From NCBI GenBank assembly GCA_030141605.1, contig JAQGDQ010000128.1:434001-498000 (forward strand): a stretch of DNA of 64,000 nt. Direction: 5' to 3'. A program made the translations under genes and the position numbers. The notes beneath the pieces are model-generated. The model saw only the letters and a list, made by a program, of their open reading frames with translations, had not been told where the DNA came from and did not search any database. Below are positions 10,920 through 64,000 of the stretch, piece after piece; positions within the stretch are counted from its first letter, which is position 1, and each line of letters begins with the position of its first letter. The DNA is from Tubiluchus corallicola. Its lineage: Eukaryota > Animalia > Priapulida.

Positions 10920-10955
10920 CATAGTCACGTGATAGTGCCGCGAGATTTCAAAGTA
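10920..10955 (+). promoter_or_regulatory. Candidate BUB1 promoter: E-box plus CDE/CHR-like (DREAM/MuvB) element
   Basis: CACGTG at 10926-10931. GCCGCG-AGAT-TTCAAA at 10937-10952 is a GC element, a 4-nt spacer and a TTYRAA motif, upstream of a G2/M gene. Confidence 0.5.
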
Positions 10956-11244
10956 CACCCAAAAATTTTACTTTTTTGTAAACAGCTGTTTTTGGTTTTA
11001 GTTTAGCGATTTTGTGTATAACAGGTGATCGTAGTGCAAAACTTTATTGTTACTTATTACTGCAATTTTTAGATATAACGGTGTTAGCACATAGACTATT
11101 CAACTTAATAACAAAAAATCCCACAATAAAGAAATTACAATATGTGTTAAACGTAATTATAGTCATTGAATTTATATAACAAATAAACGCTTACTAGAGC
11201 GTGAATTCTATAAAGCAGTAGCAGTCGGTATGAAGGGAAATACC

Positions 11245-35549: not shown

Positions 35550-35662
35550 AGATGGCGGGAGAAGCAAGTTGTTTACATGACGTAAGTGACGTTCGGCTTT
35601 TTGATTTGCTGCAATGAGTTAAAAGGCGTGGTTTAAGTCTAGCAAACCATCTCCCGCCATAA
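35550..35662 (+). promoter_or_regulatory. E2F7/8 promoter: inverted pair of E2F sites around CRE/ATF-like and GC-box-like motifs
   Basis: ATGGCGGGAGA at 35552-35562 and TCTCCCGCCAT at 35650-35660. TGACGTAA at 35578-35585 and AGGCGTGG near 35625. CpG-enriched patch upstream of the CDS. Confidence 0.65.
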
Positions 35663-36265
35663 GAAGGACGCTATCAGTTTGAGTAATTATGACCGGTATA
35701 CTTTGATAATTATTAGGTTTTTGTTCTTTCTTTGTCGTTTGCGTCTTTATATATACGTACTTATTTCGGGCAGAAACGCTATCATCAATAGGTCTGTTAC
35801 AGAATGTTCCAATCTGCTATTACAAAAAGACTTTAAAGGCACCGCCGGTTAACGTATGTAAATAAGATTAATTAACCTTTTATGAAATCTCTTGAATAAT
35901 AGTTAATGTGTTGCCTACAAGTGAAGTAAGCTTTTGCTTTTAATGCAAATCTATAACACGTGTGGCGACTAATTTATCGACAAAGTCATCACGCAGATGC
36001 TGTAATCAACACAAAAGGAAAATTTATCACAACGGAAAAGTTAATAATAGTCTAATTTTGCAGGGTAACAATATGTGAACAGTAACAATAACGAAAATGT
36101 GAGCAACAACGAAAGAATATCATAACTATAAATATGTTTATATACAGTGTGAATGTTATTCTATTACTCGTATTATTGTTATTAACATTATACATTTTTC
36201 AGATATGATAAACTCAAAATCAAAATTGAAAATAATAATTACAGCTACATTTAATATAACTTGCA

Positions 36266-42200: not shown

Positions 42201-45200
42201 GCATGTTATCCTTAATCTAGGTCATTAACTTAATAATTGAATGTATTTTCTTTAGAGTGAGGCACATCATTGCAATGTTCCAAGTATCAGAAGCATGTAA
42301 GAGACCTCTTGTCATGTTTGAGCTCAGAGGTCACGCAAAGTCATCACCTAAAGTATGAAGCATAGAAAGAACTGTGGCTTAATGCTATAGTGGGTCACAG
42401 ATAGAAACAGCAACAAAATGTCTCAAGTCAGTTACACTGTATATGTGCAGTAGACAAAGTGTCTGGGGATTTTCTTTGATGTTGCTGTTTTTTCTTTAAT
42501 TGCAGTTAAGCGTGGAGGTGGGACATGTAAATCCAAGAGCAAAACAGGTGGACAAATAGCTAAACTGTCTCGACACTCATCTTTCCAAGAAATATGTCTT
42601 GTAGCAGAAGAAGAACGAAATAAAATGTTGTCTGCATCAGCACCAGTTTCCCCTGTTAAATTAGGTAATCTTTTTTCAATCTCATTTTTCTTGTTTTCAT
42701 CACAAAATTTATGTTTTGCGCAAATTGCCCTTACATGTGGGCTGAGAAATATTAGCTGAGTTTAGTTTCATTTATAAACGCTTTTAGAAAAACTGTTGTC
42801 AAATACCAATCTCATAGTGACATATCTAATACTCTTAAACAGTTTAAAAATGATGCAGAGCTGGTTTTGTTGTGCTGCAGTCTTTCTTACTTTGATCTAT
42901 GTATCTTTTACAGTAAGTTTTGCATCTGAAGAAAAAGAATCACGTTGCCTTTTGGCATATTTAGGGTAATAAAATTGCAAATGAAGTAGTTTGGTTGTTT
43001 TAAATGGTAAACACTGAAAACCCTATACTCTCTAGGAAATACAAATGTGCAGGGAAATTAGTGCAGTGCTTTCCAGACACGTGTAACTAGCGTTGCACTT
43101 AGCCAGATAATATATTTAAACAGTTGCACATCTTGTCTCATATGTATTTCTTATAGATATCAGAAATAACACATTTTGGAACAGTATTCTATTTTGATAT
43201 TTTCTTTTCAGATATGCCAAGTAGGATTAAACATGAGTTACTCTCATCAGAACTAACCAAATCAGCTCGCTCTTTAGAAAACACTAGTTTAAACAAACAG
43301 GAAAGAATATCTGGGAAGACAAGTCTTACTACAACTTCTGAGTTTCACATTGGAACAAACTCTTTCAATGAGAGACCGACTATAAAACAGTTACAACCAA
43401 ATAAAGATTTACATGTTACAATTTCAATAGACAATAATCGGGAGCAAGTGGAGCAGAACCTTGCTGCTCGTGTGATTACTAATCTCAAAACTTACAGCAA
43501 AAAAGCATCAGTTCAAAAAAGAAATCAATTTGCTAATGGCAATCGCATGAAACCGCCTACCCAGGCTGTGACGGCTGCTAAACGAATTGTACTAGCAAAA
43601 GAAGACAGCTTAAGAATAACTGAAGCTATAAAGACCGCTCAAGCGCAAAGGCAAAGAGACTTGAGAACAAATGAACAAGGAATGTCACAAAAAAGCTGTG
43701 AACAGCAATGTAATTCATCGGGGAGTTACAGAAGTGTCTATAATTTCAGCAAAAAGTCATTTTCTACTTGCTATGTTAATGGTCAGAAAGTCCAAATTAT
43801 TACCATTCCTCCAGTGAAAACATCTTTGGCTAAAAAAGCCGCAACCTTAAAGGGGCTGGCCAAAAATGTAGTTTCGCCTTCGCTGGGAACCTGCGATCAA
43901 AGTAATGTTAATTATGAAATGACTGACTCTAATTGTAAAGACTGTAGTGAACATGATATCAGTGATGAAATAGTTCACACTGTTAGCACTTCTAACGATG
44001 GTTCTCCGTCTCACAAAAACTTTTTGCCAGAAGCCTCTGTTTGTAAGCCTGCTGCAGATGGTACTTTGCATGGTAGTCAATGTCTAGATATAGATCAGCA
44101 TACCAAGGGCAAACCAAACACATTTAAATCGACTCTTCGTCAATCCTCTGATCCAGTTTTTACTACTAGCAGTAACACTGAACCATTGCATAAAGGAAGA
44201 CAAGAAGAGTCAGCATCTTTAGAGTTGCCTCGCCCAGATTCTACCAGCAGCATGTTGGAATTAGCTTCCATCTTCGATGAAGAAAGTCACAGCATCGATG
44301 CACCTGCTGACAGAATAGAAATTCCTCGGTTTCCATCTTTCGGGTTTTCCCGTTTTCCGTCTTTCAATTGCGACTTGCTTCCTTCTGCCCTGGAACCACT
44401 CGCAGAGCAGCCTGCAGGGTTTACAGGAAACAGTTTTACTTCGCTAACTTCTTCTTGCCGCCAGACGGGACAATTTGATAAAAATCAGACTGAATCAGAG
44501 TTACCTACAACATTTCCCAGTTTTAGCAGTTTGAACCATATGGGTACACTCAGTACAGAAGCAAACGTTACTATAGACAACTCTGATTTGTGTCCATATG
44601 GCACAAAGTTCACCAATCGTCAGGCTGAAGACATGTTGTCATTTGTGCTTGCTGAATTTGAAAATCATATGGCGAAACTGAAAGAACTTGAAGTTGATCA
44701 AACTAAAGCTGAAAACGTAACAAAAGCACCAATTGCTGATGAAAGTTCTCACATTAGCAGCAACAGACAAGCTGATGACGGATTTTCTGGAAGCTCTCCA
44801 ACTGTATCTCCGCGTTCTGTTTATTCGGAGAGTGGTGATCTTTCGCGATGTTCCTTGTCGAGTGCAAGCTCAAACTCCTCATCTCTTCAGGATATACCGC
44901 AACAACAGGGCCAACCTGTTACATTTTCTGATGAATTCAGAAGTTTTGTGTCAACCCGCACACCACAAAAATCGTTACCCGATAACAGCAACCCTGTGAG
45001 TAGACATTCTGAATAATATATTGTCTTACATGCTTACATTTTCATTAAAAGTTCACAAGTTAATATTTCACTATGAGACTCACATATATGAAATTAATAT
45101 CCGTTGCACTCATTACAAATTGTGATCAACCAAATTTAGGAATTTAGTCAAACTGAATCATAGAATACACAATATGTTTTGATACTATGGATAAAATGCT

Positions 45201-47131
45201 TCTCATTGTAATAAATTTATATTTATGTAGTGCAACTATTTCTATTCAACTGTTCCCATGCCCATATTTATATCTTTCTGGAGTAGTTAGCATTGTATTT
45301 TAAAAGTGCTCTTTCTAATGCTGCCTGGTTTATGCTCATAAAAAGTTTTGTTGCACGTGCAAATCAATTATGAGCGTCCTATTAGCTGCCAATCTGGTCC
45401 TTTATAAGGTTTTTTCCAAAATCTTGATAGGCTGATATTGGCCAGCTGACCCCAGTCTCAACGTAGTCTCTTGCAGCTATCATATGAGGATAAACAAAAA
45501 TGCACATTACTGTAGACATTTTAGAAGTGCAAGATACATGAGCAGTTGAGCAGTAACAGTACTCTTCTATCCACGTCCATGGATTATATCTACTCTAGTG
45601 ACTAGCCAATTGTGGTCAGTCAGTAGCGAGTGTTTATTTTGGTTGGTAATCTTTTCTCATATCTATGTGCAACCCAACGTTTGTGCAGTGCATTTGATAT
45701 TACTTGTGACTTTATGTTTCTTTTTTATTCTGAAGAACGATAAGTTTTTACCAACCAGAATTCCCAGTACACCCTTGAGGACTACCCCACCAGCAGATTG
45801 GAATGGTTTATTTCATGGAAACACTGGAGCAAGTTGCCGCGATTCACCTCTAAATCCCACTACGCCCAGCCGTGCTTTGCAGCTACATAGTAAGCATTGT
45901 TTTTGGAATACACTATTCTGGTACCTTTATTGTAAATTTAATTTCAAAGTGAAAATAATTTTTTGTATTTTGCACAATTTAGGACTGTGCAAAACTAAAT
46001 CCAATTTTTGTCTGGAGCAGCAGTACAAGTATGACAGAACTTAGTACCAAACTCGTTTAAGGCCAACTTTTTTGCATTCTCAAAGTAGACAGTATAAATA
46101 TATTTGATTGTATGTTCTTGATATCTGAAAACAAGAAAGCTTCAACCACAGGATTTCTATATTACTCAAGCTGCTACAGTACTGTACACAGTACAGAGCA
46201 AAATAGGTGTGCTTAACAACCTATCTTGAGCAACACTGGACTTGGTTAGTAAATAGATGTGTAATCGATCACCACCAGGATAATTCTTTCTCGGTCTCTT
46301 CCTGTCGTTTTATGACTCGCTCCATGTGCCGAGGTGTATAAAAGAACATTAACAGTACAGTCACCGCCGTTTTTACCTACAGATCCATTTAATAAATTTT
46401 TTAGTTTTCTAATACTGCCAATTTACTAGCAATTCTAATTTTTGCATATATTTTATCTACTAATAATACTGTAGCTTTCAATTATCAACAATAGAAATGT
46501 TAATACAGCACTTTAGTGTTGCTCAAGAACATAAAGCAATTTGATTTTGCACCAAAACAAGGTGAAGGATAAAATTTGTTTATTGTGATTGAATTTATAA
46601 TTGATATTACCTATTACACTCAATGCAGAATCTTAAATTTTAGATATAAATTGATTTATTTATTTAGATTTATTTAAATTCTTTAGATTTAAAATACTTA
46701 TAGCACTTTGCTGTATACCAAAAAGATTACTGACTCTGCTTTGTGTCAGCTTGTACTGGTTCATGCTCTTGTGTTTCATTTGGCAGTGCAGCAACAACAG
46801 ATACTGCATTTTTCCTTGGATAAAGTTATTGCCACTTTACATGGTTAGTCCATGTGCTTTACTTGTTTACCGAGAGCTTGTAATGTCAAGTGTGTTACAT
46901 GGGCTTAATTTGGTTTAATTTGGAGAAGCCCAACTAAAGACGTTGTATTTCAGCATTATATTTACATGCTGGTATCACATTTTTTAGTTAAAATCTTGTC
47001 ATGTGTTTTATTCAGGAAATGAGCCAACCACTCCTCAACATTCTGAAGTAACAGATGAAGATTTATCAAACAAAGATTGCTATGTGAAGCCTATGAACCA
47101 CAGCTGGTCAACTTTCCTTAAAGGTGAATAA
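36266..47131 (+). CDS. E2F7/8: Atypical E2F repressor (E2F7/E2F8 family) with two DNA-binding domains, about 1390 aa
   Basis: Exons: 36266-36859, 37247-37482, 37848-37927, 38294-38424, 39214-39370, 39897-39964, 40192-40276, 40873-41013, 41396-41857, 42506-42664, 43212-44995, 45736-45889, 47016-47131. The last two are less certain. Motifs: [18 protein letters not shown]; DBD1 [11 protein letters not shown]...[11 protein letters not shown]; DBD2 [13 protein letters not shown]...RRLYDIAN; SRHSSF...SAPVSPVK. Confidence 0.9.
46227..46268 (+). pseudogene. Degenerate 5S rRNA-like fragment (possible 5S-derived SINE relic) in an E2F7/8 intron
   Basis: GAGCAACACTGGACTTGGTTAGTAAATAGATGTGTAATCG resembles the 5S internal control region AAGCA..TCGGGCCTGGTTAGTACTTGGATGGG.GACCG. 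The match is short and diverged. Confidence 0.35.
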
Positions 47132-47206
47132 TTTATTTTTAAAAAAGTAGCTCGTTGGCTTCTTACCACATCTGTTGTAGGTACTGAGCTGTTCGATTAT
47201 AGGTAA

Positions 47207-47319
47207 ATCATTGCCATACACAAACGACACACTGGGTTTTCAGTTTCTTTGTGTCATTAGATATCATTGCCATACACAAACGACTCACTGGGTTTTCAGT
47301 TTCTTTGTGTCATTTAGAT
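47207..47319. repeat. 56/57-bp direct tandem duplication
   Basis: ATCATTGCCATACACAAACGAC(A/T)CACTGGGTTTTCAGTTTCTTTGTGTCATT(T)AGAT twice. Confidence 0.9.
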
Positions 47320-48722
47320 CCACAGATGTTTATGATCTTCAGCTTACAAAGTAAACACTGAGTTATTCTGAAAATTTGCACGTGCCATAAACAACTATGA
47401 AATTAACTTTTTGCTTCGAAAGTCAAAAGCCTTTTGGAAAAATAACACTACATTATGAAGAGATCAGCTGGCTTTGCAACACACGCAGTTAATTATACTA
47501 TCGACACATTTCATTCCACCCGTTTTTTCCAGACATACCACAAAATGTTAATGCATGTGAGACACCAGTGCAAATGAGATCCGATGATATCATTGGTAAG
47601 AGAGCATGTCTCTTTGCGGGCAAGGAACTATAGGATGTTTGTGTCATTGGAAAGCTGTCAGAAATGGTTTATCGACAGATTATTTGATTTACTTGTTAAA
47701 GTGTGAATAGGATGGCAGTACTTCTGCAAACTGTTGTGTTCCACTTCTCTTTTAAACTAATGGTCATTGGCATTGTCTCGCAAATTTGCACATTTACAAG
47801 TGGAAATTGCAAGCTAACATTTTGCCTGCATAATTGTGGGCTATTATGAAATCAACTTGTAGTTGTTCAGCAGTAGTGAACGTGTGCTTGTTTTATGTAG
47901 AAATGTCATTTCTAATTATTACATAATTAAATGTAATTTCATTAGCACATGTAGTATAAAATTTTTTTTAGGAATTGTGTTTGAGAACTGAAAAGTGATA
48001 GTGTTGTAGCTCATTAGTGGTTTACAAAACAGTGCTTTCTCAGTTTTCCTACTTTCCTTGTTGAGAACGTTAATTAGTACTATAATATGTTAGTAACTAG
48101 TAAGAAAAAGTTAATGGCTTGTTTTTATTGATAGTTCTTTTTATTGTAATTTAAAACTTCATTATCACAGATTTGTAAACATGTTGTCCTTATATGTTAA
48201 TGTGTAGTGCATATTATATGATAGCATAAGTATGAGAAGTGAAAACTGAATAATTCTATTTTTTAGCGAAACACTGTGCAGCGAATACATAAAAGACTGC
48301 AAAAGCGAAGAGTAGATTGCCATGCATTTTGTTTGAATCTGATATACATCACCAGCTACATGGTGTGCGGCTGTTACATTTACAAAACTGTTCAATAAGA
48401 AACAATTTTCTTAGTTTTATTACATTTATTAGCGTTTCCTTGATCTGACAATATACATTAATATTCCCCTCCTAAATACACTTCACTGAATGTAATCTAC
48501 ATTCTTAAGTTATTTCACATTATCACTCTCTTCACAGTTCTGCAGAATGAAGAATATTTCATTTCCATAGTATGAATTCCTGAACTGATTCTCTATTAAT
48601 GAAATACACCACAACCATCGCTGCATTAACCATCAGCATGAAAACATGATAATAGGAGTTATGCACAGAAAGTACATAATTTCTCAATAACTAACAAAGA
48701 AATTTGATAAATTAGCCCAACA

Positions 48723-51700
48723 TCAATAATTATATTTCAGCTTCCTTGGCTTGAAATATTCCTTTACCACATCGTCTGTAACTTTCGCGCGAAGTTCTTG
48801 ATGCTTTCCAACTACGTCATGTAGAATTCCTATAAGTTCTTTCTTTAGATGACCAGTTAGAAGTTCTCCACTAGTATAATCCTGAAATAATGAACAGTGC
48901 GTGCATCATCAGATATATCTAGTGTAAGGGATACATTACATTTATTAAGGAGTCCCTTCACAAGTACTGTATGGAAATCTTCGAAGCACCAAGCATGTTA
49001 GAGTAGTGATTACAAGATGAAGTTAACAAGCTTGGTAAAGTTTAAATTATCAAGCACAGCAGCAAATAACCAAGCAATTAGATTTCAGTTCAGAAAATGT
49101 GCCTAAAAAATATTGCTCAACAAAATTTTGTCAATTTACTCTTTCCATCTGCCATACGAAGAAAATAAGCCAATTCAAAATCTCTACAAAATGTAGTATA
49201 TTTCAATCGAAACACAATTTTACATTAAAGACGTGAAAAGCTCCCTGCAATTTTAATCGTCACGAATTGTTGGAAAAGCATCGAATATTTGGAAGTCTTC
49301 AAAAAGAACTTCTTAAGCATTTGATTAAGTCAGGTAATCTTATAGTGGTGGATTCTTGTTCTATTCCCACAGATTGCTGTCTCACTATCTAGCTTTGCCT
49401 TGCTACATGTCATAAAGTGTGCAGCTGTTTTGTTTAAGAAGTTGCAACCTATTCGTTTTCAGAAACTACTATCATTTATTGTTTGCAAACATCTTTCACA
49501 TGTTTAACCCTACTTTATATTATATAAACGGTAAAAATACCTTCATAGCACTTTAAAGTACTTACGCATGTTTAAAAAATTTCATAAATTATTTATATAT
49601 CATTTGTTTAATTCGAGAGAGATACACGCTGCATGTAGTGACATCTATTGGTAGGAAAGATGTAGCACTATAAGCTGGTGTTCTCTTAAGACTATTTAAG
49701 TCATGATTTACTTACCACTCGAATCTTTTCTAACTTATCATCATCTTCAAGGAAGAATGTCAGGTACTGGTAAGAAATGTCAACATCACATTTACCTCCA
49801 AGACGTCGGTGTTCTTCCACCGTTGCTTGGCCACCAGAGAACGCATATTTGTTTATCTGTTAATAATATATTTAAACCTTTATTCCACCAAAATCGTTAT
49901 GGCTGTGACACGGTTTAGCATTGAGCACAGTTGAATATAATGTGCACAACTTTCACACAATACGAGGCTGATAAGACTATAGAAATCCACTACACGTTTA
50001 CTTCACATTTTTAGATGGCCATTTTGTAGGTGATGCATATGATCTACCTTTAGCAGTTAATCCATCGCCTCCTGGACCATGACAACTTTTATTAATACAA
50101 AATAAATTATGAAAAGCCTGTACTGAAAATCTAGTTATAACAAGTCTGTTTGCCCAGCATTTTTCCAGTTATATAGAGGCATAGCGAAATTGCCTGTTAA
50201 AAACTGATTATCCAACTCTTCTACCTCCTTTCTATATTACTTAAGTGCTCATTAAGAGCCACTGTTCCACGTAATGACAGAAAGTGATTTTTCTTGGCAC
50301 ATAAGAAGTACTTTCACACAAGACTTTTGAATCTTGCAAAAAAAATTAATGGTAAACTATTGTTAATAACAGGAATTATCTTCATCTTAAATAATTTTGC
50401 AGCAGTAAAAGTTTATCTGTCAGTAAAAAGCAATAATTCATTATTTGCAAGCTTAAGAACAGCATTATTTCAGAAATGAGTTCTAAAAACAGCTTTTCAA
50501 AAACAATTTCATTTTTGCTAAATTGTAATTTAGTGGAGGATCATATGAACACTAGGTGTTTGTTACTCATTCTCTACAAAATCAGCCACAGACAAGCCAA
50601 TGCAACATTTATCGAACATTTGTCTATGAAACTGCAATGACAACTGATCCAATAAATGGTATGGAATGAACCAGTTTTGGGCTCGTTTTTCATTAAGCAT
50701 TTTCACTGAAAGATGTTGAAAATGAAAAAAATCTTATAACAAGAAAAGCTTATTATAAAAAGACAGTTCTCAAATCCACCATGAGTTCAATGCCGGACAG
50801 TCTGATGTTTTTACTTACAGCACTGCTGCTGCTAAAAGTACTGGTATCATTAATTAAACAAAATCCTGTATTTGCTAAAAAATGCATTCCAGTCTTGTTT
50901 TTTTCAAACATGATGTTAATTCCCACCTATCAATTCATTAAGAATTTTCCTTTTAAAAGAAACTGCATGTACCTTGGTCTTAATCTGTTGCTTAGTGTCA
51001 GTTAAAAATACTGAAGAGTTTGGTTCACTAGCACTCATTTTCGTCATTGCACCTTGTAGAGCTGGGATGAAAGTAGAATGAATTAATGACGGTTTGGGAT
51101 AACCAAGCCTAGGTGCCACATCCCTTGTGATTCTAAAGTAAGGGTCCTGAAACAGCATTAAAACCATGTTAATGTGAAACAAACACCCAGATTTACAAAA
51201 CAATGTTTTATAGAATATCAGCAAAAAATCTCAGTCACTACAAACGTTTTGCAGATAAAATGAAAAACCAACAAACTATTGCAAAAAAGGCCACACCAGA
51301 AACTGTCGAATGAAAGATTAATGTAAGTGTACAAGCAAAAAAGGGTGACACAAAGTATTCAGTGTTTTAGATAGCTGATAACATTTTTTGTTTAAATTCT
51401 CTTTCTGCTTTACAATTAATTATATCTTTCCTAAGGGATACAGTAAACTCTGCATAACTCAAATCCAACCGGATGAAAAAACTTTGAGTTAGGCGATGTT
51501 GACCATTCTCCAGCATAGAAACTCTAAACCTCTCCATCATCAGACGGCGAGCTATTTAGAAGGCAAAAGGTCAATCCTTCTATACATAAACAACGAGACA
51601 TGATGACAATTACATAAAGAATAACAAATTATGTAGTGAGACAACGATTTTTTTAGTGTTACAGAGACAGAGAATTCGAACAGACAATGACAATAGAGTG

Positions 51701-54700
51701 ATTGTTTTCACGTCGCTCACTGAGACTTTCCCCGGAAAGATCAATCCCGGAGAAAATAATCTGGGGGCGCGACTTGAAAAAAACATCAGAATTGTCCCAG
51801 AAGACGATGCCATTTTTGAGTTGTGCAAACTTTTTATTTTTCTAGAATATAAATTGCACTTTTGAGTTAGGCAAAGTAAATTACATGTATTTTGATTAAA
51901 TGGACCATAATTTTTTATCTGAGTTGGGCAAAATTTTGAGTTACGCAATGTTTTTTGTGGGAAAAACAAAGGATTTCATCTGTTCTGCTGAAATCTTTTG
52001 AGTTGGAGGAAAATTTGAGTTATGCAATTTTGAATTAAGCGGAGATTACTATATTTCGCAGTTGGATTCTTTATGCCAAAGTTGAGCTAACTGTGGTGTA
52101 GAATTTTTCAAATAAAATGATAGTAACAAATTTCTTGCAATAACTTTTATGAAACTCACAAGCATAAGGCAAAATGCACTAATTAAAACTAACCTGGTCA
52201 ATAGCACACGGAATGAGACACGGAATATCTGTCTTATCTCCAAATATTTGTGGAAATGAGTTGCTAAATGAGGTGACTGCTTGTATTGCAGGAAAACTGA
52301 TCTTGCCAATGCAATCACTTTCAGTAAATCCAAAGCACCCTTTGACTTGATTGAATGTGACACACTTTTGGAATCGTATCATGTTACGATAAAATGCCTG
52401 TGATGACCTATTATTAAACACAAAACAAATAATAGTATGATTAGACCAATTAGAAACACATATTCAAGGAATCATTGAAAAGTACGGTGAAAATCTGCTA
52501 GCCAAAAGCAAAGTTAGCCAGGTACAGATATATTAGCCAAACTACATTACCATTTACCATTTACTTATTGCATTAGAGAATTTAATTTCGTGTATTTTTT
52601 TTTAAATTTCTTTAGATTCATTGAAAAGTAGCCAGCAGTTTTCACTTTCGTATTACGTTAGCTCTTGCAGTGGAATGCAACCGTCATTTTTACACTACAC
52701 CCTAGCAACACTAATTTAAAAGTAACAGATGCTTATAAAAATAAAATTTTGTTTAACTGTTAAAAATTAACAGTTTGTGTATGCAACGCATTTAGTACTT
52801 TCAAAAAAATGATGTTATCACTTCAAATGTTCAAAAACTGTTGTACATAGAATGTGAGAAACTATGGCTATGTTGAAATTCAAACAATCCCATACCCTAT
52901 ATATTCCATGTCACTAAAAATGAATGTTTTCTCTACATCAAATCCGATGGCTATTATGTCTTTAGCATTTTCTACAGCCAGCCTATAAGCCTCATCAACA
53001 GTCAGGTCTCTCCACAGAAACTTCTCGTCATCAGTTAGCTGAATGATCAAAGGTACATCGAAGACATCTTGCAACCATCTAAATGAAACCAAAACTACAC
53101 CATCAGCAGCACTCTAATAAAAAATGATTACACAAAAAGCAATGCACAATATTATGAAATCACAAACACAAAGCTTGAGTTAGGTTACAAATTAATCAGA
53201 TTCTAAAATTCTGCTATGAGAGTACGTACTGTACACATGAGCTGTAAAAATTTTGGCCAGCCATAGGCTCTCCTAAGTACAAAGTCAAATTAAGTGTCAT
53301 AATGACTTAACGCTACTGGTGTACATACTGTATATAATGCAAAGTGTTCGAAAAATAAAAGACGCCAACGATCTTCATGGTTAATATCAGGTTAAAGTGT
53401 GTCACGGTATGAAGCGTACCAAGTTTAATTTGCATTGTATAAAGCCATCGAGGCCAAACTTTAAATACGCCAACATAGGGATTGTCTTGTATAATGAATA
53501 AACCTTTAAAGTCGAAGTCCTTTCCCTAATTGATATGTGCATTTCTTAGTCAACCACATCAATGGCAAACTGAAGAAAAGCAGGTTTAACTAAGGCTGCA
53601 GTGCTGCTGGGTCTCACACCGGAGCACCTCTGTAATTTTGGATAAGATTTATTGATTTTTGGAATGCTAAGTGGTTAACTTGGCCTTGTTTCTGCAGTGA
53701 TGTAACAATACTAGCTGCAATATAGTTCTAAAATTCTCCTCCTTAACAAAAGAATGCATTAAGATGGTTCTGCGATGCTCACATGTTTTTACAATGTATT
53801 TTCATTAAATTAATTTTACATGTTCTAATTCTTCAGCATGAGTAAATTTTCCACTTCATATAAGGTTTAAAAGATTTCTACTCCTACCAAAAAGTTATGC
53901 ACAATCGCGTACTATTTGGGTCTTTATTCTGATGCCATTATTTTATGCTGCAACTCCCGAAGACCAAATATAAGTCATACAACTTTTATAAGCTGAAAGC
54001 TGCCTTGATGCTGTCACGGTAAAGTTCTCCAAATACAGATCTAGAACTTGTGCCTCCACATTGTTATTCTCAAGTCATTATGCAAAAATGTGGCTATGAT
54101 CCTAAGTGCTGGTGTAGCTATACCAAAAATGTTCCACTTCACATGGTTTATCATTCTGACGTTTTAATACATTCAAATGTGTTTGCCATTGACACGTAAT
54201 GTGCACAGTTTTACGTAAACATGTGCTAAATAAATAATTTATAAAGCAATTGCCACCTAATTTTTGTAGCTTAAGTAATCTTCTTTCTGTGGCGTTACTT
54301 TTTATTAGTATGTATGTGAATGTCTAATTTTATGGCAATAAATGAAGCGATATAGTGAAAACAGGAATGTACATATATATATATATATATATATATAACT
54401 AATATAACAAATACATCATACGTGAAAAGACCAATTTTATGGTACAGAAACAGAGTAGGTCAGTACAATTCAATGTCTAGTGCAAGCACAGCACTTTAAT
54501 GCATAACAAATTAATAGTCACATTATTTTGGAATCAGTAAGTGGCACAAAATTAACAAAAGCACACACGAATATGTTTTTGTGATAGTGTTAAGCTGCTG
54601 AATTGTTAAGACAGCTTATTAAGCATAATGCAACTTACTTAGTAAACATAAATGGAATCAAGTGTCCCAGATGCATGGCACCGGATGAAGGACCTCGGCC

Positions 54701-56870
54701 AGTATACAAAAAGAACGGCTTCTTCTCTTCATACCTGGTTAAAATCCTATTCAGATCTCTGTAATAAACCAAATAATTTTAAATGTAAAATTTGGAATTA
54801 ATTACTTTTAGGCACCATATTAGAATGATCATTTCAACAGTAAAGATCTATTGCATCAAATATGTATTAATTAACTAGTATTACAAATAGAAACACCACA
54901 ATTTAAATATGTTCATAAAAACTTTGTTGTCATTGTTTCAATTTGCAATACAGCATTCCTAAACATACTGAAGATCCAGCTAAAACGTAGAAAGTTCATA
55001 AAAAAAGTAGCTTGTCACACGATAACTTATACAATATACATGTTAGTCATATATCAATGTAGCTCGTTTTACAGTAGCCTGGATGATAAAATGGCGGTAC
55101 TAGCATGATTATGTAGGTTTGCATGTATTATTACTATGTGTACGAGTTTATACTGTGTAAATTAAATTGCATAGTAGTAAACTTGCTAACCCACACACTT
55201 TGGAATAAATTCAACAATCTCAACAAATTTATCTGTAAGCTTTTGTGCTAAACTAAACTTGTACAGACAATCGTAAACTTATAACCTACATAGCAGAAGT
55301 CTGACTGACGTGGCGTAGCTAACGAGGCAAAGGGGGCGGTCCAGCATGGGTGGCACTATCATCAAATGCACTGAAAAAATTGATTCTGTCGGAACAGTAA
55401 AAAGGCAAAACATCTGACAAGTAAATTTTCCATGGAAACCCTGTACATTCTGTAGATTGGGACAAAGGAAGAGGATAATTAGTAATTTAACATGTATTTG
55501 TTGTTGTATTCTATAAATCCGAAGAGTCCAGTTCAAGTTTATAACATTTAATTATATAAACAACACGTAAAAGCTTAGTAACAAGCGGCTGCCAAGATCC
55601 AATCACATGGTCAAAAGTATAGCTACTCCAAAGAGACTATATAAATGTAAAACTTCTATAAGTTAAAAGATTCATATCCTAAACAACATGTATCACATGT
55701 TGTTTAGGTTATGAACACTGCTATATCTGTCACATAGTTTTTTGTTGCTTTCAAAATTTCTGCACAGTAACTGTGATATACATTTAAATTAAATAATCAT
55801 GCTCTTTTCTACTTGAAAAAAGCCTTTGAGCATCATAACTTTAAAAGCATGTAGGGTGAATTTATTTCTTCACTAACAATTTTTTCCATTACTATAAGAC
55901 CTCAATTATCCGGACACCTGCTATCTGGACCAACATATCTGGACTAGATAAGAAAAACTGCTATTGACAGTTTTTATCCATTTTAGCCTAAAAGGTTAAG
56001 GTTAACCTATGGACAGACCAGGTGTTCTGATCTGGGAACAGGACTTTGATCCCGATAATCGAGGGGTCAAACTCAAGTCCAGCTCCAGGTGCCGCAAGCT
56101 CTAGCTATGCCACTGAGATCGGCTTCACAAACGTTATGACTTAAGGATGACGTACAATTACATATAGAGGTCTGACTTCCATCCAAACTGCCTTATCATC
56201 ACCATTCAGTTCAGAACCAAATGTGACCGTACCTTGACAACTGGTCATACTTAACTGAATGATGTCACCGAACAGCTAACATACTTTAAAGGCATTGAAG
56301 GGCATTTTCAGTACAGACAAAATGAAATAACACAACTTACCGATGTGAGAAAAAGATTCCACGTCTGAGTAAATGATGAGCTTTTTGCCCAGTAACTGTT
56401 TCAAATCTTCGTATGAGTTCATCATCAATTTTTGAGCTACCAAATCTCTCTGTTAATAAAGCAAGCAACAAAAAATTTCAGCAATACTAACCCAAAATAA
56501 AAACCCCAGCCCTGGAACTTTGCTAGCATTAAAAACAATGACGAAAAATTCCCTCACACAATTCACTCTCAAAGTTATCAGCATTCTACTCAGTCAACTT
56601 GAAATATGCTTGAACTGAGTAGCTCCACCCAAAACAAACACTCGAGAAAGACACTCACTGCATGAATAACAAGTAATAATTTACTCCCTGGAAGTAAAGG
56701 CCCATCATATCCCATCAAAAAACTGCGAAAATGAACATACTTATCAGTTTGTCATAATCAACGCCTTTCTCCGACGAAGCATGAACCTCCCACGGGCTTA
56801 CAAAATCTTCATCTTGGTCATCGGCATTTAGCGACATTTGATTCAATGATTCATGAACCTCATTAGCCAT
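48723..56870 (-). CDS. WARS1: Tryptophan--tRNA ligase, cytoplasmic, 409 aa, no N-terminal WHEP domain
   Basis: Minus-strand exons: 56870-56741, 56449-56341, 54758-54639, 53078-52896, 52407-52194, 51146-50973, 49856-49716, 48881-48723, summing to 1230 nt. Motifs [56 protein letters not shown]. Confidence 0.95.
51441..52051. mobile_element. Tc1/mariner (Tigger-like) MITE in a WARS1 intron
   Basis: TA-flanked imperfect TIRs CAGTAAACTCTGCATAACTCAAA versus reverse complement TAGTAATCTCCGCTTAATTCAAA. Repeated TTTGAGTT subterminal motifs. Confidence 0.7.
54374..54397. repeat. (TA)n microsatellite
   Basis: About 12 TA units. Confidence 0.9.
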
Positions 56871-57454
56871 ATCAGTTATTTAAACTACCTGTAAATGACA
56901 AATGATATCGCCACTCGCTCCATATTGTAGACGAATTTAATCTCTGCTTATAAACCATTCTGCTCGCAAAAACATTACTTGCAAATTCTTATTTTAGAAC
57001 TAACTGAAACTGGTAAATACGCTATCATGAATTCTATTTTTTCTGGCATTAAAAAGCTATGACAATTTAGTTGCCCGCTGCAGAAGAAAAAGTTCTCTCA
57101 TTAGAATATACCACTCTGAAGTGATAAACAGTGAAGCATATAAACATTATACAAGTGCTACACTGTTTTGATTTGGAAAATCAGCACAAGTCTAATATTG
57201 TTATTATTAACAAAATCTTTAGTATTACGAAAAGCACGTGCATGAATTATACAGCACCATTTTTGTACACTGTGAGATTTGCATTTCTAGTTAACATATA
57301 AAAATGCAGAAGTATTTATGATAGGTAGGCTGATGTATACAGAAAAAAATCTGCATAAATCTTAATTCTGATAAACAAAAAACTGATTCAAAAAGTGCAA
57401 GAACACCCAGAATTTGAAATGCAATGTCAACACACCTACATGACTGAACAGAAA

Positions 57455-57492
57455 ACAATTCAAACACCAAAGTGTTGTAAGTTTATTGTACA
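57455..57492 (-). terminator. WBP11 polyadenylation signal
   Basis: Minus strand reads TGTAC-AATAAA (57487-57482) followed by GT/T-rich TTTGGTGTTTGAATTGTTTT, about 400 nt after the stop codon. Confidence 0.6.
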
Positions 57493-57888
57493 TAGTACTG
57501 CATGTGGCATATCACGTTTGCATAAATAGCATTTACTAATACTAATACTTATATTTCAGTTACTCTGTCATCTGTCAGTTATCGTGGTACAATAAAAAAA
57601 CGCTATGGACCAAAGTATTTTTTAAAACAAACCTTCTGCAATCATTCGTGTTTCATGAAATCGTGTACTAACTACAGCATACACAAAAACACTGCTTAGG
57701 GTTATAAATAACAGAAGCTCTTAAATGCTACTCCAGTAAATTTCAAAACGACACTGTAATGCTAAATCATTATTGTAAAGTACTGTTTACAAGCAACCAA
57801 ACATCTAGTACTGAAAAATAATATTTACAAAAATTTACATCGAAAATCAATAATTAGAACTTTAATTTCATCATTTTATATTTCATTT

Positions 57889-59544
57889 TTACAAGAAGCT
57901 TTCCATTTCTTTCATAAATGTATCATAAGCATCGTCCTTTGTTTTCACATTAGCTGGTGTTTGACGCATAGCAGTCACACCTCTAGTTTCCTCAAGTCCT
58001 AAAGCAGAAGGTTTCTGGGGCTTTTTGGTGGATTTCGCATCTCGCTTGACTTTTAAAGCTGTGGGTGTGAACCTTGTCACATCTTGTATTGAACTACGAA
58101 TTTGAGGTTTAGCTTCAATAGTTGCTGAGCTTTCATCTTCTTTTTGTTTTGGTCTGCTAATCAGACTAGGTGGTGCGGATAATATATTAGGATTTGAAGT
58201 TGAAGGTGGCATCATATGTGGAGGTATGATACCAGGAGGAAGTACGGGGGGTGGGCGCATCATGCGAGGTAGTGGCAATCCAGGAGGACGAAGAGGGGGT
58301 GGGCGCAGACTTGTTGGCAAGCCTGGAGGTGGACCAGGTGGCATACCAGCAGGCCGTCCAGGTGGAGGCCCTGGAGGAAGCAAGCGTGGAGCAATCCCCG
58401 GTCGCAGTGGAGGTGGCCGATTAAACATAGGTGGCAAAGGAATTCCAGGAGGGAGACCAGGGGGTGGCCCTGGAATTTCACCCTCAATAACATCAACTCC
58501 TGGAGGTCTCAATGACTCCTCTTTAGGTGTCTTTTCTTCATCAACAGGAATCATTGGAACTTGTTGCCCTGCCATTTTTAACATTTTTGCTTGCAATGAA
58601 CCTACAGCTGGTTTAAATTTAACTCTTGTGTCCTTTTCTTCATCCTCTGGATTCCAGCTGTCATCATCTGCAAACCGGATAGTCCTTCCTTTAGCGACAG
58701 TATTTTCATTAACATTTTCTTTTCCAATATCTTCTTTGGCAGCACTCTGTTGTTTTAGCAACATAGCTGTAGCTTGCTGACGCTCTTCTAACAAGCGCTC
58801 ATACTCCTTAACAGGGTCATATGCTTCGTCATCATCATCTTCAATTAAATTCTCATCAGGCCCACTAACTCTATCTTCTTCCTCGTCATCATCATCAGTT
58901 GAATAATCACTAAGTTCTGGAGGCATGCCAGGTGGCGCACCTGGTGGTTGTCGTTTTTTTGCTTTCTCAATTACATTTTGGGGAACAGGTCCTGACGGAG
59001 GGCCAGGAATACTGCTCGTCTTTTTAAGTATACCATGCGGCTGCAGAGCTGGCAAAGGAATATCTCCTGGGAAAAGATGTGCATTGGATGCCTGAAGATC
59101 AAGTGCAGTGCTGTCAATAGGCAGAGGAATCTCCTCCAGCTGTACCCGTTGTGCTGATTTTACGGCCTCATAATAAGTTATAAGTTCATTGCGTTTTTTA
59201 TTGTAGTCTCCTTCGAGGCGTCTCAGCACAACATACATGTCAGGATCTTCTTTCTCATAGAGTCTAAGAACTCGATCAAACGTTTCCTTAACCTTCCTCC
59301 TCTTGTCCTTCAAAACTTTCTCATTCAAAACAGGTGGATTATTTGGATCATATTCCATTGCATCAAGTTTTTCCAATTCTACAATCAAAGCTTGTGGATC
59401 TTTGCCTTTAAGAACTGCAGTTCTAACAAGCTGTCGCTGTTTCTTATTCTTTTTCAATTCTTTCTTTCGAGCTTCCTTGCGAGCTTGGTCAGTTGGATTC
59501 ATAAATTTACCACTTTTAGTGGTATTAATTGATCGTCTGCCCAT
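57889..59544 (-). CDS. WBP11: WW domain-binding protein 11 (NpwBP/SIPP1), splicing factor, 551 aa, single coding exon
   Basis: Conserved start MGRRSINTTKSGKFMNPTDQARKEARKKELKKNKKQR. ILKK motif, RTIRF/RVKF PP1-docking-like motifs, proline-rich PPGPPPG tracts and C-terminal TKDDAYDTFMKEMESFL. The true ATG is at 59544; the ORF track starts at an upstream GTG. Confidence 0.95.
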   Translation of the reverse strand: MGRRSINTTKSGKFMNPTDQARKEARKKELKKNKKQRQLVRTAVLKGKDPQALIVELEKLDAMEYDPNNPPVLNEKVLKDKRRKVKETFDRVLRLYEKEDPDMYVVLRRLEGDYNKKRNELITYYEAVKSAQRVQLEEIPLPIDSTALDLQASNAHLFPGDIPLPALQPHGILKKTSSIPGPPSGPVPQNVIEKAKKRQPPGAPPGMPPELSDYSTDDDDEEEDRVSGPDENLIEDDDDEAYDPVKEYERLLEERQQATAMLLKQQSAAKEDIGKENVNENTVAKGRTIRFADDDSWNPEDEEKDTRVKFKPAVGSLQAKMLKMAGQQVPMIPVDEEKTPKEESLRPPGVDVIEGEIPGPPPGLPPGIPLPPMFNRPPPLRPGIAPRLLPPGPPPGRPAGMPPGPPPGLPTSLRPPPLRPPGLPLPRMMRPPPVLPPGIIPPHMMPPSTSNPNILSAPPSLISRPKQKEDESSATIEAKPQIRSSIQDVTRFTPTALKVKRDAKSTKKPQKPSALGLEETRGVTAMRQTPANVKTKDDAYDTFMKEMESFL

Positions 59545-59589
59545 TTTTACGTGTTCCTCCCAATAACAATTACCTCTACTCAGTCTCAC

Positions 59590-59626
59590 CTTTTCTCTAC
59601 TGCAGCTTTTCACTTCTTAACTCTTC
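59590..59626 (-). other. 37-nt purine-rich non-coding exon segment, possibly shared by WBP11 and WARS1
   Basis: ttgtttgttttcag|GAAGAGTTAAGAAGTGAAAAGCTGCAGTAGAGAAAAG|gtgagact has a strong acceptor, a strong donor and no ATG. Confidence 0.6.
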
Positions 59627-60679
59627 CTGAAAACAAACAAAAAGGTCTCAACAGACCAATACACTTACTTTATTATAACAGATATTTGTTGCCCACACTT
59701 TGGTTAACAAGAATTTCAAAAGTCTCACAACTACCGTTACAATTTTGCAGCAAACCCATATACATAAATAACAAAGCTCAGAACTTACTCGTGCCAAGTT
59801 TTCACTGTTAAATGCAAAATCTTTTCGCTGTCTTCAAATAACAATGCATGCATAATGAAAGAATATCAATTGATTTCAATTATGCAAACTAACCATTTTA
59901 CCCCACAAAGCTACCAGAGATATTAAAGGACAAGCTGTCGTTGACAAAACATGTACTTCCATTAAAGACCATAATGGCTTTTTCACACTCTCTTCAGTAA
60001 TTATGTGCATGTTGATGACTGGTGCAACACGAAATCAATGATTGGTTTATAATTATTGACAGTATCATAAAATTTAAGCTACACACTACATCTGTTAACT
60101 CGGATAAAAATACATCAATGACTTGATGTCAAAGAACTCTCAAACTGTGCAAAAGTTTCTTGTACTTTTTGTGGTTGAGCTACCGGAAAACAAAGATCTC
60201 ATCATCTCTGTACAGATTCCAACACAGTTGCAGTGTGGGTAATTATTAAAGTAATTGTATCCAGTAGAAAGTAACCACTGCAGTGCTTTTTAACTTTTAG
60301 AAAAAATATTAACAACTCTTCATGCAGATTTCATGTATATTAATTAGCACTTTACTAAGTGAGGATGCATGCTCGGATAAACTCTATCTATCTGTCTATG
60401 ATCATGTAATGGCACTCTCCTACTCAGTGTGCCATTAGCAACACCTTCACAGAGCCTTGAGCAATGATGGACAGCTCCACTTTGAGCATGCTCAGTAATT
60501 GCTGACTGTACAATTGTATTCATTTACATAATCAGCAACCTATCTAAGAAAGCTAGCAGTGTATCAGTTACTGCCAACACCACTGCATTTGTACATAACC
60601 ATATTGTTATGTCAATAAAGTGTTCATTTTAGTACACACCTTGGTATTTGTGCAACTCAAATTACACTCATTGTCAAGA

Positions 60680-61512
60680 GCGGAGTAGGACACTAGCCGA
60701 AATAGGACAATTGCCGTACATGGGCTAGCCCAAGTAGGGCGCGTTGTACACGAGCTGCCCAAGCAAGACACAGAGAGGGTTCACGCATTGAGTTGTTAAC
60801 TGTAGTGGCAGCATCCGTTGTCCTTGTTTATCATATATATTAATTTCGGTGGTATATTATATATATATATAACCGTCGAGGCTACAGCTCTGACGACGGC
60901 ACCATTTTCGGCGATCTATACATCAAACGAAAGGTCCGGACTCACAGATTTGCCTTAGGAATTTAATAATAACAATGGAAAGTGTCAATACATCATACAA
61001 TTCATTACACATCTAATAAAATAAAAGAATCGTATCCTGAGTTAGTCAAACGAGCAATATTAAATTTGGCTTTAAGATCAATCTTTTTGAAGTGAAATAA
61101 GCTGCTTTTTAGGCGATTCCAACATCTGGTTAAGGTATATCATTTTTATTTTGTCTCGCTTCACAGACAGGTGATCCATTTCACTATGTGAACAAAACGC
61201 ATGTTTTTGATCTTGCAAACTGGCCCTTTTTATTGATGCCAGCTTGCTTGCTGATTTGGTGAATCGTGTGTATCCGCGCTATGAGACCAAGCTGACAGCA
61301 ACTCAGCCAACTAACACAATTTTTATTAAAATGAAGAAACTTTCACAAAATTTTTAAAAATTTGACAAAATTCTCAATTCTCTAAAGTTAAAAGACTGAG
61401 AGAAATCGCCAGTGCCCTACTTGGGTTGCCTACGCACCACACTGTTTTTTTTGCAAATTTACAGCATGCGTTTTAGTGCAAGTGTTTTACTTCGGCTAGT
61501 GGCGTACTCCAC
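60680..61512. mobile_element. Degenerate TIR element (MITE, superfamily unclear)
   Basis: GCGGAGTAGGACACTAGCCGAAATAGGACAATTGC matches the reverse complement of the right end, GTGGAGTACGCCACTAGCCGAAGTAAAACACTTGC. A second inverted pair is CCCAAGTAGGGC/GCCCTACTTGGG. No clear TSD. Confidence 0.55.
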
Positions 61513-61947
61513 GTCCTTTACTATAATACCGTGGTACAATTAAGAATCTTTTCAGTGTTTTAGACAGGCTGAACCTTGTCTAATTCTTTACTTAGTCATT
61601 CAAAGTTTTTCGCTGTCAATTACTCTGATTTGCGCTTCTCTAATGCCTGCTTATGTCGGACAAAATTTAAGCCAAATGCTGCCATCTGGCAACGAAAATA
61701 ATATGAAAACAATTTACACTTCCTTTAAACATGGACTTCAAAAATGAGTTTTTTCTTCTAAACAAGAGACTTTCGCTGAAACATTTTGATAAAAAATATT
61801 TCCATCATGATGTATCACACCGATTTGAAAACTGAAGTCTATATTTTGTCAAACCCATGCTAAAGTAAAAAGACGATTACTGTGTATTTCAACCACTCTC
61901 TTAACTGAAGACCGAGACATCATATTAAGCTTTAACTAATTACTCAC

Positions 61948-62100
61948 TTGTACACAGGAGGGCAGTAAAAACGGTTTTTGAATTACCCAAATCAAATAAT
62001 TAATACTTAAGTAAGTAAAAGCACATGGAACTCCTTACTTTTAGTAGCAAGAGCATTTCAACATGGCTGCGTTTACAGCGGCTATGATTGGATGACTGGG
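61948..62100 (-). promoter_or_regulatory. Candidate promoter and first non-coding exon for the WBP11 (and WARS1) transcript
   Basis: Minus-strand CCAAT at 62091-62087 and YY1-like GCAGCCATGTTG at 62070-62059. Donors follow: AAA|GTAAGG (exon end 62039) and CAA|GTGAGT (exon end 61948). Confidence 0.5.
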
Positions 62101-64000
62101 ACTTGGAGTGAAAATTCAATTCGTGTCCGCTTTATTTAAGCCGTCATTTCCATCATGTGGTTAACTGGTTACTGGTCCGCTGGTTAGTGGTTACCCTTTT
62201 CATTACATTTCTGTGTTGCATTATTCTAACTTTTATCGTCGTTACCTTGGTTTTGGGCATTCAAAAACAATAAAAAAAAGGACTGCACCATAATACAAAG
62301 TGTAATACAACGTTTTGCTAGGGGCATAGTAGAAAACATTAAGCTACAATTAAAGGACTGCAGCATAATTCAAAGATTATAAAGGAGAATTGCCAGTGAT
62401 ACAAAAATAAAAACACAAAACAATTTCTTATAACGAAATGTTCACTGATAAATGATTAGAGAAACTATCTTCCTCTCACTTAAGTTCATGGAAGCCGTGA
62501 TCGTGCATCAGAGTGACTCACAAAACTTGCAATCTTGAAGGGTACGTTAGAGATTAAAATAACTTGTGGTCAAAGCCACTATTTATCGACAGATGTCTCT
62601 CAAGAGTGCCTGTTGAATATTGATCAATGGTATGTTCTTGAGTCATCGTAACCTCCACTTAGTCATTTACAACTCCAATGGTTTTGGCCGTGTAGCAGAC
62701 AAATTGGACATCTGGGTGATTTCCAGGCCATTTTGGTCTGCTCAATTCATACTCCTCAAGACTGCAAGCTGTGTGAGACGCACGAGTTTATGCATCTACA
62801 TTAAATTCTGAGGGCATGATAGCTAATTTTAAAACATTGATTTGGTATCATTTTGATGTAATATTTCTTTTGTACTGTTGCTTGTCATTTTTGGAACCTC
62901 TCCGGGGCTAGCAGAAAGCTACATTACAATGATGACACTTATAATTACGATGCAGTTTGTGTGACGAAGTCTGGAATAGAGTTATCATTAAATTAGCCAT
63001 CTATATCCTTGTGCGATTATGCATATGGTGCCAATTTCCCCAAGCAAGTTCCTATACGTAGCTGGGCCCAAATTGGCTGCTGTCAGGATGTCTTTAGTTT
63101 GAAGCTGTGGCTTGTATTTGTTTATTCATATGAAGAAAAAACAAGCACCAAAAATCCTAAGCTCACCCAGATAGACAGCGACCACTGAAAAAGCAATCCT
63201 CAGTATAGTCTTATGATGACTTGTCTGCCAGCTAGCTAGTTAATTCTTTGATGAGATGAGTACAAATATTTTTGATGAGCAACCTAAGAGAAACGACTCT
63301 TATTTTTTGTGCTTTTCTTACTGCGTTCTCTTATGTAAACTAACATGAGCATGCTTTATAACATAACCTATGCAAAAGTGAACTTCACTGTAGCAACTGA
63401 AATGTACTGCCACACATTACTTTGAGAACAAAAACAGAAGAAAAGTGAATAAAAGGAATCCCCTATGCAGCTAAAAGATTTGAAATCTCAATACAGATGT
63501 TGTGCAACTGTTTTACAGTTCACATTTTGTATGCTAGGGAGGATACAAATTGATGAATCTCATTTTAAGGCCAGTACGACTGACAGACATGGCATTAGAG
63601 TGTGGGAGCTGGAGTGACCAACCAAGAGTACAATCATAAGAGGTGTCTGCCATTGTGAAAGGCAACAGCAGTAGGAACAAATCAGCAGTTAGCAGCAGAA
63701 ATGTTTTAATAATTTCTGTTGAAACGCATTTGATTGCATTGGTCATTTTTCAAATGGCATAATTATTTTGGTCTCCAATTTCCGAATTTGTCACTGAATC
63801 CCTTAAAAGATGATAGCACTTCAAATTTCTATGGTTGATTAATGGCAAATTTAAGAGCCTTTCAAGTAAAAAGCAGAAACTTCGGCTGTTGTACAAGAAT
63901 GTAATAACAAGCAGTGTATGTCATTAATATCTGAGAGCTGCCACCAAATTAACAAACGAAGTACAAACAGCCATAATTGAATATGATCCTAAACTTACGA

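What the first reader, a model, noticed from the sequence alone, without database searches (positions are those of the whole stretch)
56870..62100. WBP11 appears nested in a WARS1 5'UTR intron: one transcript, splice-versus-polyadenylate choice between two unrelated proteins
Seen (minus strand): an acceptor opens an exon at 59626. After 37 purine-rich nt there is a near-consensus donor AAG|GTGAGA (GT at 59589), with a second GAG|GTAATT at 59573. The WBP11 ATG is only 45 nt past the first donor, with no usable acceptor between. The intronless WBP11 CDS, its AATAAA (57487) and the WARS1 acceptor tttacag|G (56888, 18 nt before the WARS1 ATG) follow. Joining 59590 to 56888 removes 2.7 kb containing all of WBP11 and adds no upstream ATG. 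Known: WBP11 is a spliceosome-associated factor, U1 binding at a 5' splice site suppresses intronic polyadenylation, and ChAT/VAChT is a precedent for a nested gene sharing 5' exons. Inference: the two mRNAs are mutually exclusive products of one promoter near 62.05 kb, which could give WBP11 a feedback loop in which more splicing means less WBP11 and more TrpRS.
Basis: partly seen in the sequence, partly recalled or inferred. Interest (0 to 1): 0.85.

Follow-up and report, generated by a model that had tools for sequence, protein, structure and literature searches.

The report
Two housekeeping genes in tight tandem
In this animal, likely a priapulan worm, an intron-free splicing-factor gene (WBP11) stops about one kilobase before the tryptophan-tRNA ligase gene (WARS1) starts, and although a strong splice signal could join the two, WARS1 likely has its own promoter, which would make this an ordinary neighbouring gene pair.

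Summary
The anatomy is as described: acceptor before 59626, donor at 59589, intronless WBP11 CDS (59544-57889), AATAAA at 57487, and an acceptor-like site 18 nt before the WARS1 ATG. The donor is strong: it outscores all 7 WARS1 donors, and 823 of 10,000 composition-matched shuffles reach it. The WARS1-side acceptor is ordinary (1.7 look-alikes per kb of intron). No data I could reach showed the 59590->56888 junction, and the two runs laid could not test it. Against a shared promoter as the main source: the 260 nt around the WARS1 ATG keep CpG (observed/expected 1.23), which 0 of 158 gene-body windows reach, as expected of a promoter in a methylated genome. The pairing is absent in Priapulus caudatus and in 14 of 15 species compared. 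Human WBP11 favours short introns with weak donors, the opposite of this 2.7-kb, strong-donor intron. Best reading: tandem genes with separate promoters (0.6). Some shared-exon WARS1 mRNA remains possible (about 0.3) but would be a known kind (RBM12/CPNE1; 130 Drosophila genes). Feedback loop about 0.04.

The parts
61948..62250 (-). Candidate WBP11 promoter and non-coding first exon; donors at 62038 (score 7.7) and 61947 (9.5); CCAAT-like site at 62091, YY1-like site near 62060-62068 (motifs recalled)
   Evidence: inferred, no start site shown; CpG o/e only 0.80-0.90
60682..61510 (.). Repeat with 33-nt terminal inverted repeats (MITE-like) inside the presumed WBP11 5'UTR intron
   Evidence: inverted repeat I1; many contigs pile up here
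59590..59626 (-). 37-nt purine-rich start of the WBP11 last exon, after the acceptor ending at 59627; the proposed shared exon
   Evidence: acceptor matched by only 1 site in 6.6 kb of WARS1 introns
59568..59592 (-). Two donor-like sites inside the WBP11 5'UTR (GT at 59589, score 10.8; GT at 59573, score 7.2); use not shown
57889..59544 (-). WBP11 coding sequence, intronless, 551 aa
57440..57487 (-). AATAAA at 57487 with downstream G/T-rich tract: likely WBP11 poly(A) site near 57465
   Evidence: cleavage site inferred
56871..57000 (-). CpG-retaining stretch before the WARS1 ATG: likely WARS1 promoter or first exon; holds a YY1-like AATATGGAGCG at 56926 (motif recalled), a weak donor at 56978 and the acceptor-like site at 56889
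   Evidence: inferred
56741..56870 (-). WARS1 first coding exon (CpG o/e 1.15)
48723..56449 (-). WARS1 coding exons 2-8: 56449-56341, 54758-54639, 53078-52896, 52407-52194, 51146-50973, 49856-49716, 48881-48723; AATAAA at 48430 and 48421 downstream

Best explanation
WBP11 (one coding exon) and WARS1 (eight coding exons) lie head to tail on the minus strand and are likely transcribed separately, WBP11 likely from a promoter near 62.1 kb and WARS1 likely from its own promoter within about 150 nt of its start codon. Shown: the gene structures, the splice-like sites, the poly(A) signal and the CpG pattern. Inferred: WBP11 mRNA is made by splicing a short first exon (donor 62038 or 61947) to 59626 and cleaving near 57465; WARS1 starts at about 56.9-57.0 kb, either unspliced or through a 90-nt 5'UTR intron (56978-56889). 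The donor at 59589 would be a latent site, used rarely if at all, because cleavage near 57465 removes the downstream acceptor from most transcripts. The intronless WBP11 is likely a lineage-specific insertion or intron-loss product next to WARS1 (untested).
For: CpG o/e is 0.55 for the window and 0.52 for WBP11 plus internal WARS1 exons, but 1.23 (10 CpG) at 56741-57000, Poisson P about 0.011; 0 of 158 non-overlapping and 10 of 2024 sliding 260-nt gene-body windows reach it. The other 4 start-codon regions in the window, each behind an acceptor-like site, give 0.11-0.64, while a motif-rich promoter-like stretch before the E2F7/8-like gene gives 1.36. P. caudatus is predicted to have all DNMTs and methylation (PMC8821070, passages); hypomethylated promoters beside methylated gene bodies are measured in annelids and Ciona (PMC11292947, PMC3827831, passages). 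A strong poly(A) signal and about 580 nt of spacer leave room for a promoter. A similar ~100-nt 5'UTR intron precedes the BUB1-like ATG. The pair is on different scaffolds in P. caudatus (114,257 and 828,292 bp) and in 14 of 15 species; 0 of 79 WBP11 loci held a WARS match (most loci short).
Against: The 59589 donor is the best of all GT sites in 62250-56889 and better than all 7 real WARS1 donors; none of the other 4 start-codon regions in the window has a donor above 6.6 in its last 90 nt. The CpG signal rests on 10 sites, methylation was not measured, single WARS1 internal exons reach 0.82-1.03, and the presumed WBP11 promoter itself shows only 0.84, so the marker is imperfect. Only 7.7% and 14.1% of unmethylated regions are promoters in two annelids. 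Lack of synteny does not exclude a young shared-promoter arrangement.
Confidence: 0.6

Rival explanations
1. WARS1 has its own promoter, and in addition a real minor WARS1 isoform starts at the WBP11 promoter and splices from 59589 (or from the 62-kb exon) to 56888, skipping WBP11.
For: Accounts for both signals: the strong donor and the CpG patch. FlyBase notes pairs in which one or both genes also use unshared promoters (PMC4528330, passage).
Against: No junction evidence; the donor is reached by 8% of composition-matched shuffles; a site noticed after scanning a window is subject to selection of the most striking feature.
Confidence: 0.17
2. One reading: one promoter near 62.1 kb serves both genes; splicing 59590->56888 gives WARS1 mRNA, cleavage near 57465 gives WBP11 mRNA, so WBP11 is nested in a WARS1 5'UTR intron, as RBM12 is in CPNE1.
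For: Strong donor 45 nt before the WBP11 ATG with no acceptor to rescue WBP11; an acceptor-like site 18 nt before the WARS1 ATG; all 4 other genes in the window appear to have 5'UTR introns; the layout matches RBM12/CPNE1 (PMC2568002).
Against: The WARS1 start region keeps CpG although it would lie 5 kb inside a CpG-poor transcription unit (intron 59627-60600 0.27, WBP11 CDS 0.47, spacer 0.36). The 56889 acceptor is ordinary and three equally good pseudo-acceptors lie before it in the spacer. No conservation of gene order.
Confidence: 0.15
3. The two genes form an operon resolved by spliced-leader trans-splicing at the 56889 acceptor (and possibly 59627).
For: Poly(A) signal followed within 600 nt by an acceptor close to the next ATG; trans-spliced leaders can mimic shared first exons (PMC8527503, passage on a ctenophore).
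Against: Good cis donors lie upstream (62038, 61947). A search for priapulid + trans-splicing + spliced leader listed 3 papers, none on priapulan leaders by title and abstract start. The CpG patch is not explained.
Confidence: 0.05

Closest known systems
RBM12/CPNE1 promoter-sharing pair (PMC2568002; parts 1-2 of 7 and passages read)
   Same: If the junction is used: an RNA-processing protein encoded in one large last exon, upstream of an unrelated multi-exon gene, sharing promoter and 5' non-coding exons; the authors already proposed that polyadenylation versus splicing decides the product.
   Different: There the shared exons are shown by cDNA and RT-PCR and conserved from zebrafish to human; here no junction is shown, the order is not conserved, and the downstream gene has a promoter-like CpG patch.
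Drosophila genes sharing a promoter and 5' non-coding exons (FlyBase, 130 genes, e.g. Ip259/RpS27A, CG2911/Spec2; PMC4528330, passages read)
   Same: Same class if any shared-exon WARS1 isoform exists, including mixed cases with unshared promoters.
   Different: Membership needs transcript evidence, which is lacking here.
Cholinergic locus, VAChT in the first intron of ChAT (recalled, not read)
   Different: Those two proteins work in one pathway and the layout is deeply conserved; WBP11 and TrpRS have no known link (3 papers hold both names, 1-2 mentions each, all omics studies by title).
Ordinary head-to-tail housekeeping gene pair with an intronless upstream gene
   Same: Separate poly(A) signal, spacer and CpG-retaining start region; a second such layout (intronless ZDHHC16-like gene before the BUB1-like gene) lies in the same window.
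   Different: Only the unusually strong donor in the WBP11 5'UTR sets this pair apart.

Membership tests
Promoter- and 5'-exon-sharing nested pair (RBM12/CPNE1 type) | Upstream CDS confined to one terminal exon with its own poly(A) signal | tested here: met
Promoter- and 5'-exon-sharing nested pair (RBM12/CPNE1 type) | Donor upstream of that CDS and acceptor before the downstream ATG that join without touching either CDS | tested here: met
   sites present; donor strong, acceptor at background level
Promoter- and 5'-exon-sharing nested pair (RBM12/CPNE1 type) | Transcripts of both genes carry the same 5' exon (junction reads) | tested here: inconclusive
   contigs of two runs, no joint at these sites, neither run able to decide
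Promoter- and 5'-exon-sharing nested pair (RBM12/CPNE1 type) | Downstream gene lacks a promoter of its own (obligate form only) | tested here: inconclusive
   CpG retention suggests a WARS1 promoter; start sites not measurable
Promoter- and 5'-exon-sharing nested pair (RBM12/CPNE1 type) | Arrangement conserved in relatives (supporting, not required) | tested here: not met
Splicing-factor autoregulatory switch | Isoform ratio responds to the factor's level | not testable with these tools
   needs knockdown or expression data
Splicing-factor autoregulatory switch | Regulated intron resembles the factor's known targets | tested here: not met
   human WBP11 targets are short introns with weak 5' sites (PMC7039186); this intron is 2701 nt with the strongest donor in the region
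Spliced-leader operon | Non-genomic leader on the downstream mRNA | not testable with these tools
   no 5' end of WARS1 mRNA was reachable
WBP11 (SIPP1/Npw38BP) orthologue | N-terminal Wbp11 domain, proline-rich region, conserved C-terminal motifs | tested here: met
   PF09429 E 1.9e-18; alignment A1
Cytoplasmic tryptophanyl-tRNA synthetase (WARS1) | Class I tRNA-synt_1b domain, named WARS1 relatives over full length | tested here: met
   relative P0123 is 78% identical to P. caudatus WARS

The most novel reading that the evidence does not exclude
A young, lineage-specific insertion of an intronless WBP11 into the WARS1 5' region created a splice-versus-polyadenylate switch that WBP11 itself controls: more WBP11 favours the 59589 donor, removes the whole WBP11 CDS and yields TrpRS mRNA, tying spliceosome supply to tRNA charging.
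Probability: 0.04. Interest if true: 0.7.

Novelty: already known. Interest (0 to 1): 0.22.

Why it matters
On the best reading it does not: two neighbouring housekeeping genes. If junction reads turn up, it becomes one more promoter-sharing nested pair, a class with more than 20 human pairs and 130 fly genes, of modest interest as a young example in a little-studied phylum. Only a demonstrated response of the isoform ratio to WBP11 level would be surprising, because the 'unproductive' product of the splicing factor's autoregulation would be another essential mRNA instead of a decay target. I found no such report for WBP11 (listings; passages of one paper).

Tried and rejected
Sequencing runs: no RNA holder listed; two runs, X1 (kind unknown, 0.63 of words) and X2 (RNA guessed, 0.03), both contigs only. 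Laying them on 50000-63000 and 56200-60300 gave no joint at 59590, 59574, 61948, 62039 or 56888 and no cover at 56885-57295; these blanks are not used as evidence. One X1 contig (2302 nt, 11 differences) runs unbroken from 59620 to 57342, across the donor with 31 letters on its 5' side, and ends in an Illumina-adapter-like tail (identity recalled) rather than an upstream exon or leader; as X1 may be DNA and also holds unspliced exon-intron pieces, this shows no transcript form. No whole genome is held. An exact 25-nt pattern from the WARS1 start found 0 stretches in metagenome contigs. Contig lengths behind the relative's proteins (2391 nt for P0001, 1542 nt for P0123) fit both models; P0001 starting at the second Met is uninformative (15 of 34 such records do). 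The donor region has no unusual fold (z -0.38); Rfam found 0 matches in 45000-64000. An internal donor as a general WBP11 feature was rejected: 1 of 23 loci inspected (23 of the 79, chosen for having upstream sequence) had a donor of 10.8 or more within 150 nt of the ATG, and it belongs to a short ordinary UTR intron. An N-terminal WARS1 extension through the junction was rejected: an in-frame stop lies 12 nt before the ATG. Earlier findings on this genome, this sequence or these gene names: none.
Full report
Observation. On the minus strand a T-rich acceptor opens an exon at 59626; 37 nt later comes AAG|GTGAGA (GT at 59589), then GAG|GTAATT (59573), then the ATG at 59544 of a 551-aa open frame with the Pfam Wbp11 domain. 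The only AATAAA before the next gene is at 57487. WARS1 starts at 56870; its eight coding exons sum to 1230 nt and match a 409-aa relative, P0123, at 89-100% per exon. The best named hit for both genes is Priapulus caudatus (59% for WBP11; 78% for P0123), and P0123 groups with it in a tree of 18 WARS proteins with moderate support (89/82), so the animal is likely a priapulan.

Are the splice signals more than chance? On a generic donor matrix (frequencies recalled and approximate) the 59589 site scores 10.8; the seven real WARS1 donors score 3.5-9.7; it is the top GT site in 62250-56889; 12 sites in 128 kb of both strands match it; none lies in 6.6 kb of WARS1 introns. The 82-nt UTR piece is very purine-rich, however, and 823 of 10,000 dinucleotide shuffles give a donor as good, 227 both donors. 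The acceptor at 56889 carries no weight: 11 sites as good lie in the WARS1 introns and three in the spacer ahead of it. It can also pair with the weak donor at 56978 (4.1, within the range of real WARS1 donors) as a 90-nt intron; the BUB1-like gene in the window has a similar ~100-nt donor-acceptor pair before its ATG.

Transcript data. Two runs could be laid, both as contigs. They neither show nor exclude the junction; details are under Tried and rejected.

Does WARS1 have its own promoter? The window is CpG-depleted (o/e 0.55). P. caudatus is predicted to have all DNMTs and methylation (PMC8821070, passages), and measured invertebrate methylomes show methylated gene bodies with hypomethylated promoters (PMC11292947 and PMC3827831, passages). 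If WARS1's first coding exon lay 5 kb inside a unit starting at 62.1 kb it should be depleted like the stretch before it (intron 59627-60600 0.27, WBP11 CDS 0.47, spacer 0.36). Instead 56741-57000 holds 10 CpG (o/e 1.23; P about 0.011 against a body rate of 0.52). None of 158 non-overlapping gene-body windows and 10 of 2024 sliding ones reach this. The four other start-codon regions in the window give 0.11, 0.64, 0.62 and 0.64, and a promoter-like stretch before the E2F7/8-like gene gives 1.36 (the BUB1 and E2F labels are recalled from sequence motifs, Pfam did not name those pieces). A YY1-like word sits at 56926 (motif recalled). Limits: ten sites, no measured methylation, WARS1 internal exons range 0.28-1.03, the WBP11 3'UTR gives 0.82, the presumed 62-kb promoter only 0.84, and most unmethylated regions in annelids are not promoters. 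I read this as favouring a WARS1 promoter, not proving it, and it does not forbid an added shared-exon isoform.

Conservation. Using the contig lengths listed with protein hits, 15 species had values for both genes (two more lacked one value and were left out; only the top 120 hits per search were seen). Fourteen differ, including P. caudatus (114,257 versus 828,292 bp). The exception, Neocloeon, has both on a 20-Mb sequence with accession numbers about 2,860 apart, so probably not adjacent. None of 79 WBP11 loci from metagenome contigs held a WARS match, though most are short or look like transcripts. In several of these loci the N-terminal WBP11 match is split, as by introns, and in others it is unbroken, so an intron-free CDS is not peculiar to this genome; a second intronless housekeeping gene (DHHC domain) lies at 8847-9998. 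The pairing looks lineage-specific. That removes conservation as support for a regulatory design, but a young shared-promoter arrangement is not excluded.

The feedback idea. [quoted passage not shown] The proposed intron is long with the strongest donor nearby, a poor fit. The only 'autoregulat' hit in that paper is a reference title on another protein. U1 suppression of intronic polyadenylation and the ChAT/VAChT precedent are recalled, not checked. Searches for a WBP11-TrpRS link (3 listings), WBP11 autoregulation (5 listings) and intronless WBP11 (6 listings) showed nothing on this arrangement by title and abstract start.

Comparison with known systems. If the junction is used, the locus works like RBM12/CPNE1, where an RNA-binding protein encoded in one last exon shares promoter and 5' exons with an unrelated gene and the authors already proposed a polyadenylation-versus-splicing choice (PMC2568002, parts 1-2 and passages). 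FlyBase lists 130 genes sharing a promoter and 5' non-coding exons, some also with unshared promoters (PMC4528330, passages). Earlier notes of this scan describe several similar invertebrate loci (unchecked leads). The defining test, shared-exon transcripts, is inconclusive here, so I do not file the locus in that class.

Verdict. Separate promoters with a latent donor 0.6; own promoter plus a minor shared-exon isoform 0.17; obligate shared promoter 0.15; trans-spliced operon 0.05. WBP11-driven feedback about 0.04. Interest 0.22: a cheap, decisive check exists, but even a positive result is a new member of a known kind.

Noticed in passing
window 8786-10700 (+): A second intronless housekeeping gene: DHHC palmitoyltransferase (ZDHHC16-like, label recalled), CDS 8847-9998, with an acceptor about 60 nt before the ATG and no strong donor in that UTR piece; AATAAA at about 10675 and 10857, followed by a CpG-retaining stretch at 10880-11140.
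   Followed up: partly
window 35540-35860 (+): Promoter-like CpG-rich stretch before an E2F7/8-like gene, with two E2F-site-like words in opposite orientation and two TGACGT words (motifs and gene label recalled); used as a positive control.
   Followed up: partly
window 60682-61510: MITE-like repeat with 33-nt terminal inverted repeats in the presumed WBP11 5'UTR intron; many contigs of X1 and X2 match parts of it.
   Followed up: partly
window 24973-25356 and 26059-26442: Two identical 127-codon frames about 1086 nt apart inside the BUB1-like gene: a recent tandem duplication or an assembly duplication.
   Followed up: no
window 1935-3650 (+) and 11431-12003 (-): A reverse transcriptase frame (PF00078) and a further frame that looks like a retroelement remnant (no Pfam hit).
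   Followed up: no
P0002 (P. caudatus WBP11): The model lacks a proline-rich stretch and the conserved C-terminal end seen in the 11 other aligned proteins, which suggests missed exons and so a multi-exon gene in P. caudatus.
   Followed up: no
window 56665-56857: An X1 piece over WARS1 exon 1 and intron 1 has 6 differences and an 8-nt insertion in 201 nt, far more than the 11 in about 2,280 nt of the WBP11 contig: a divergent allele, second individual or related species in that run.
   Followed up: no
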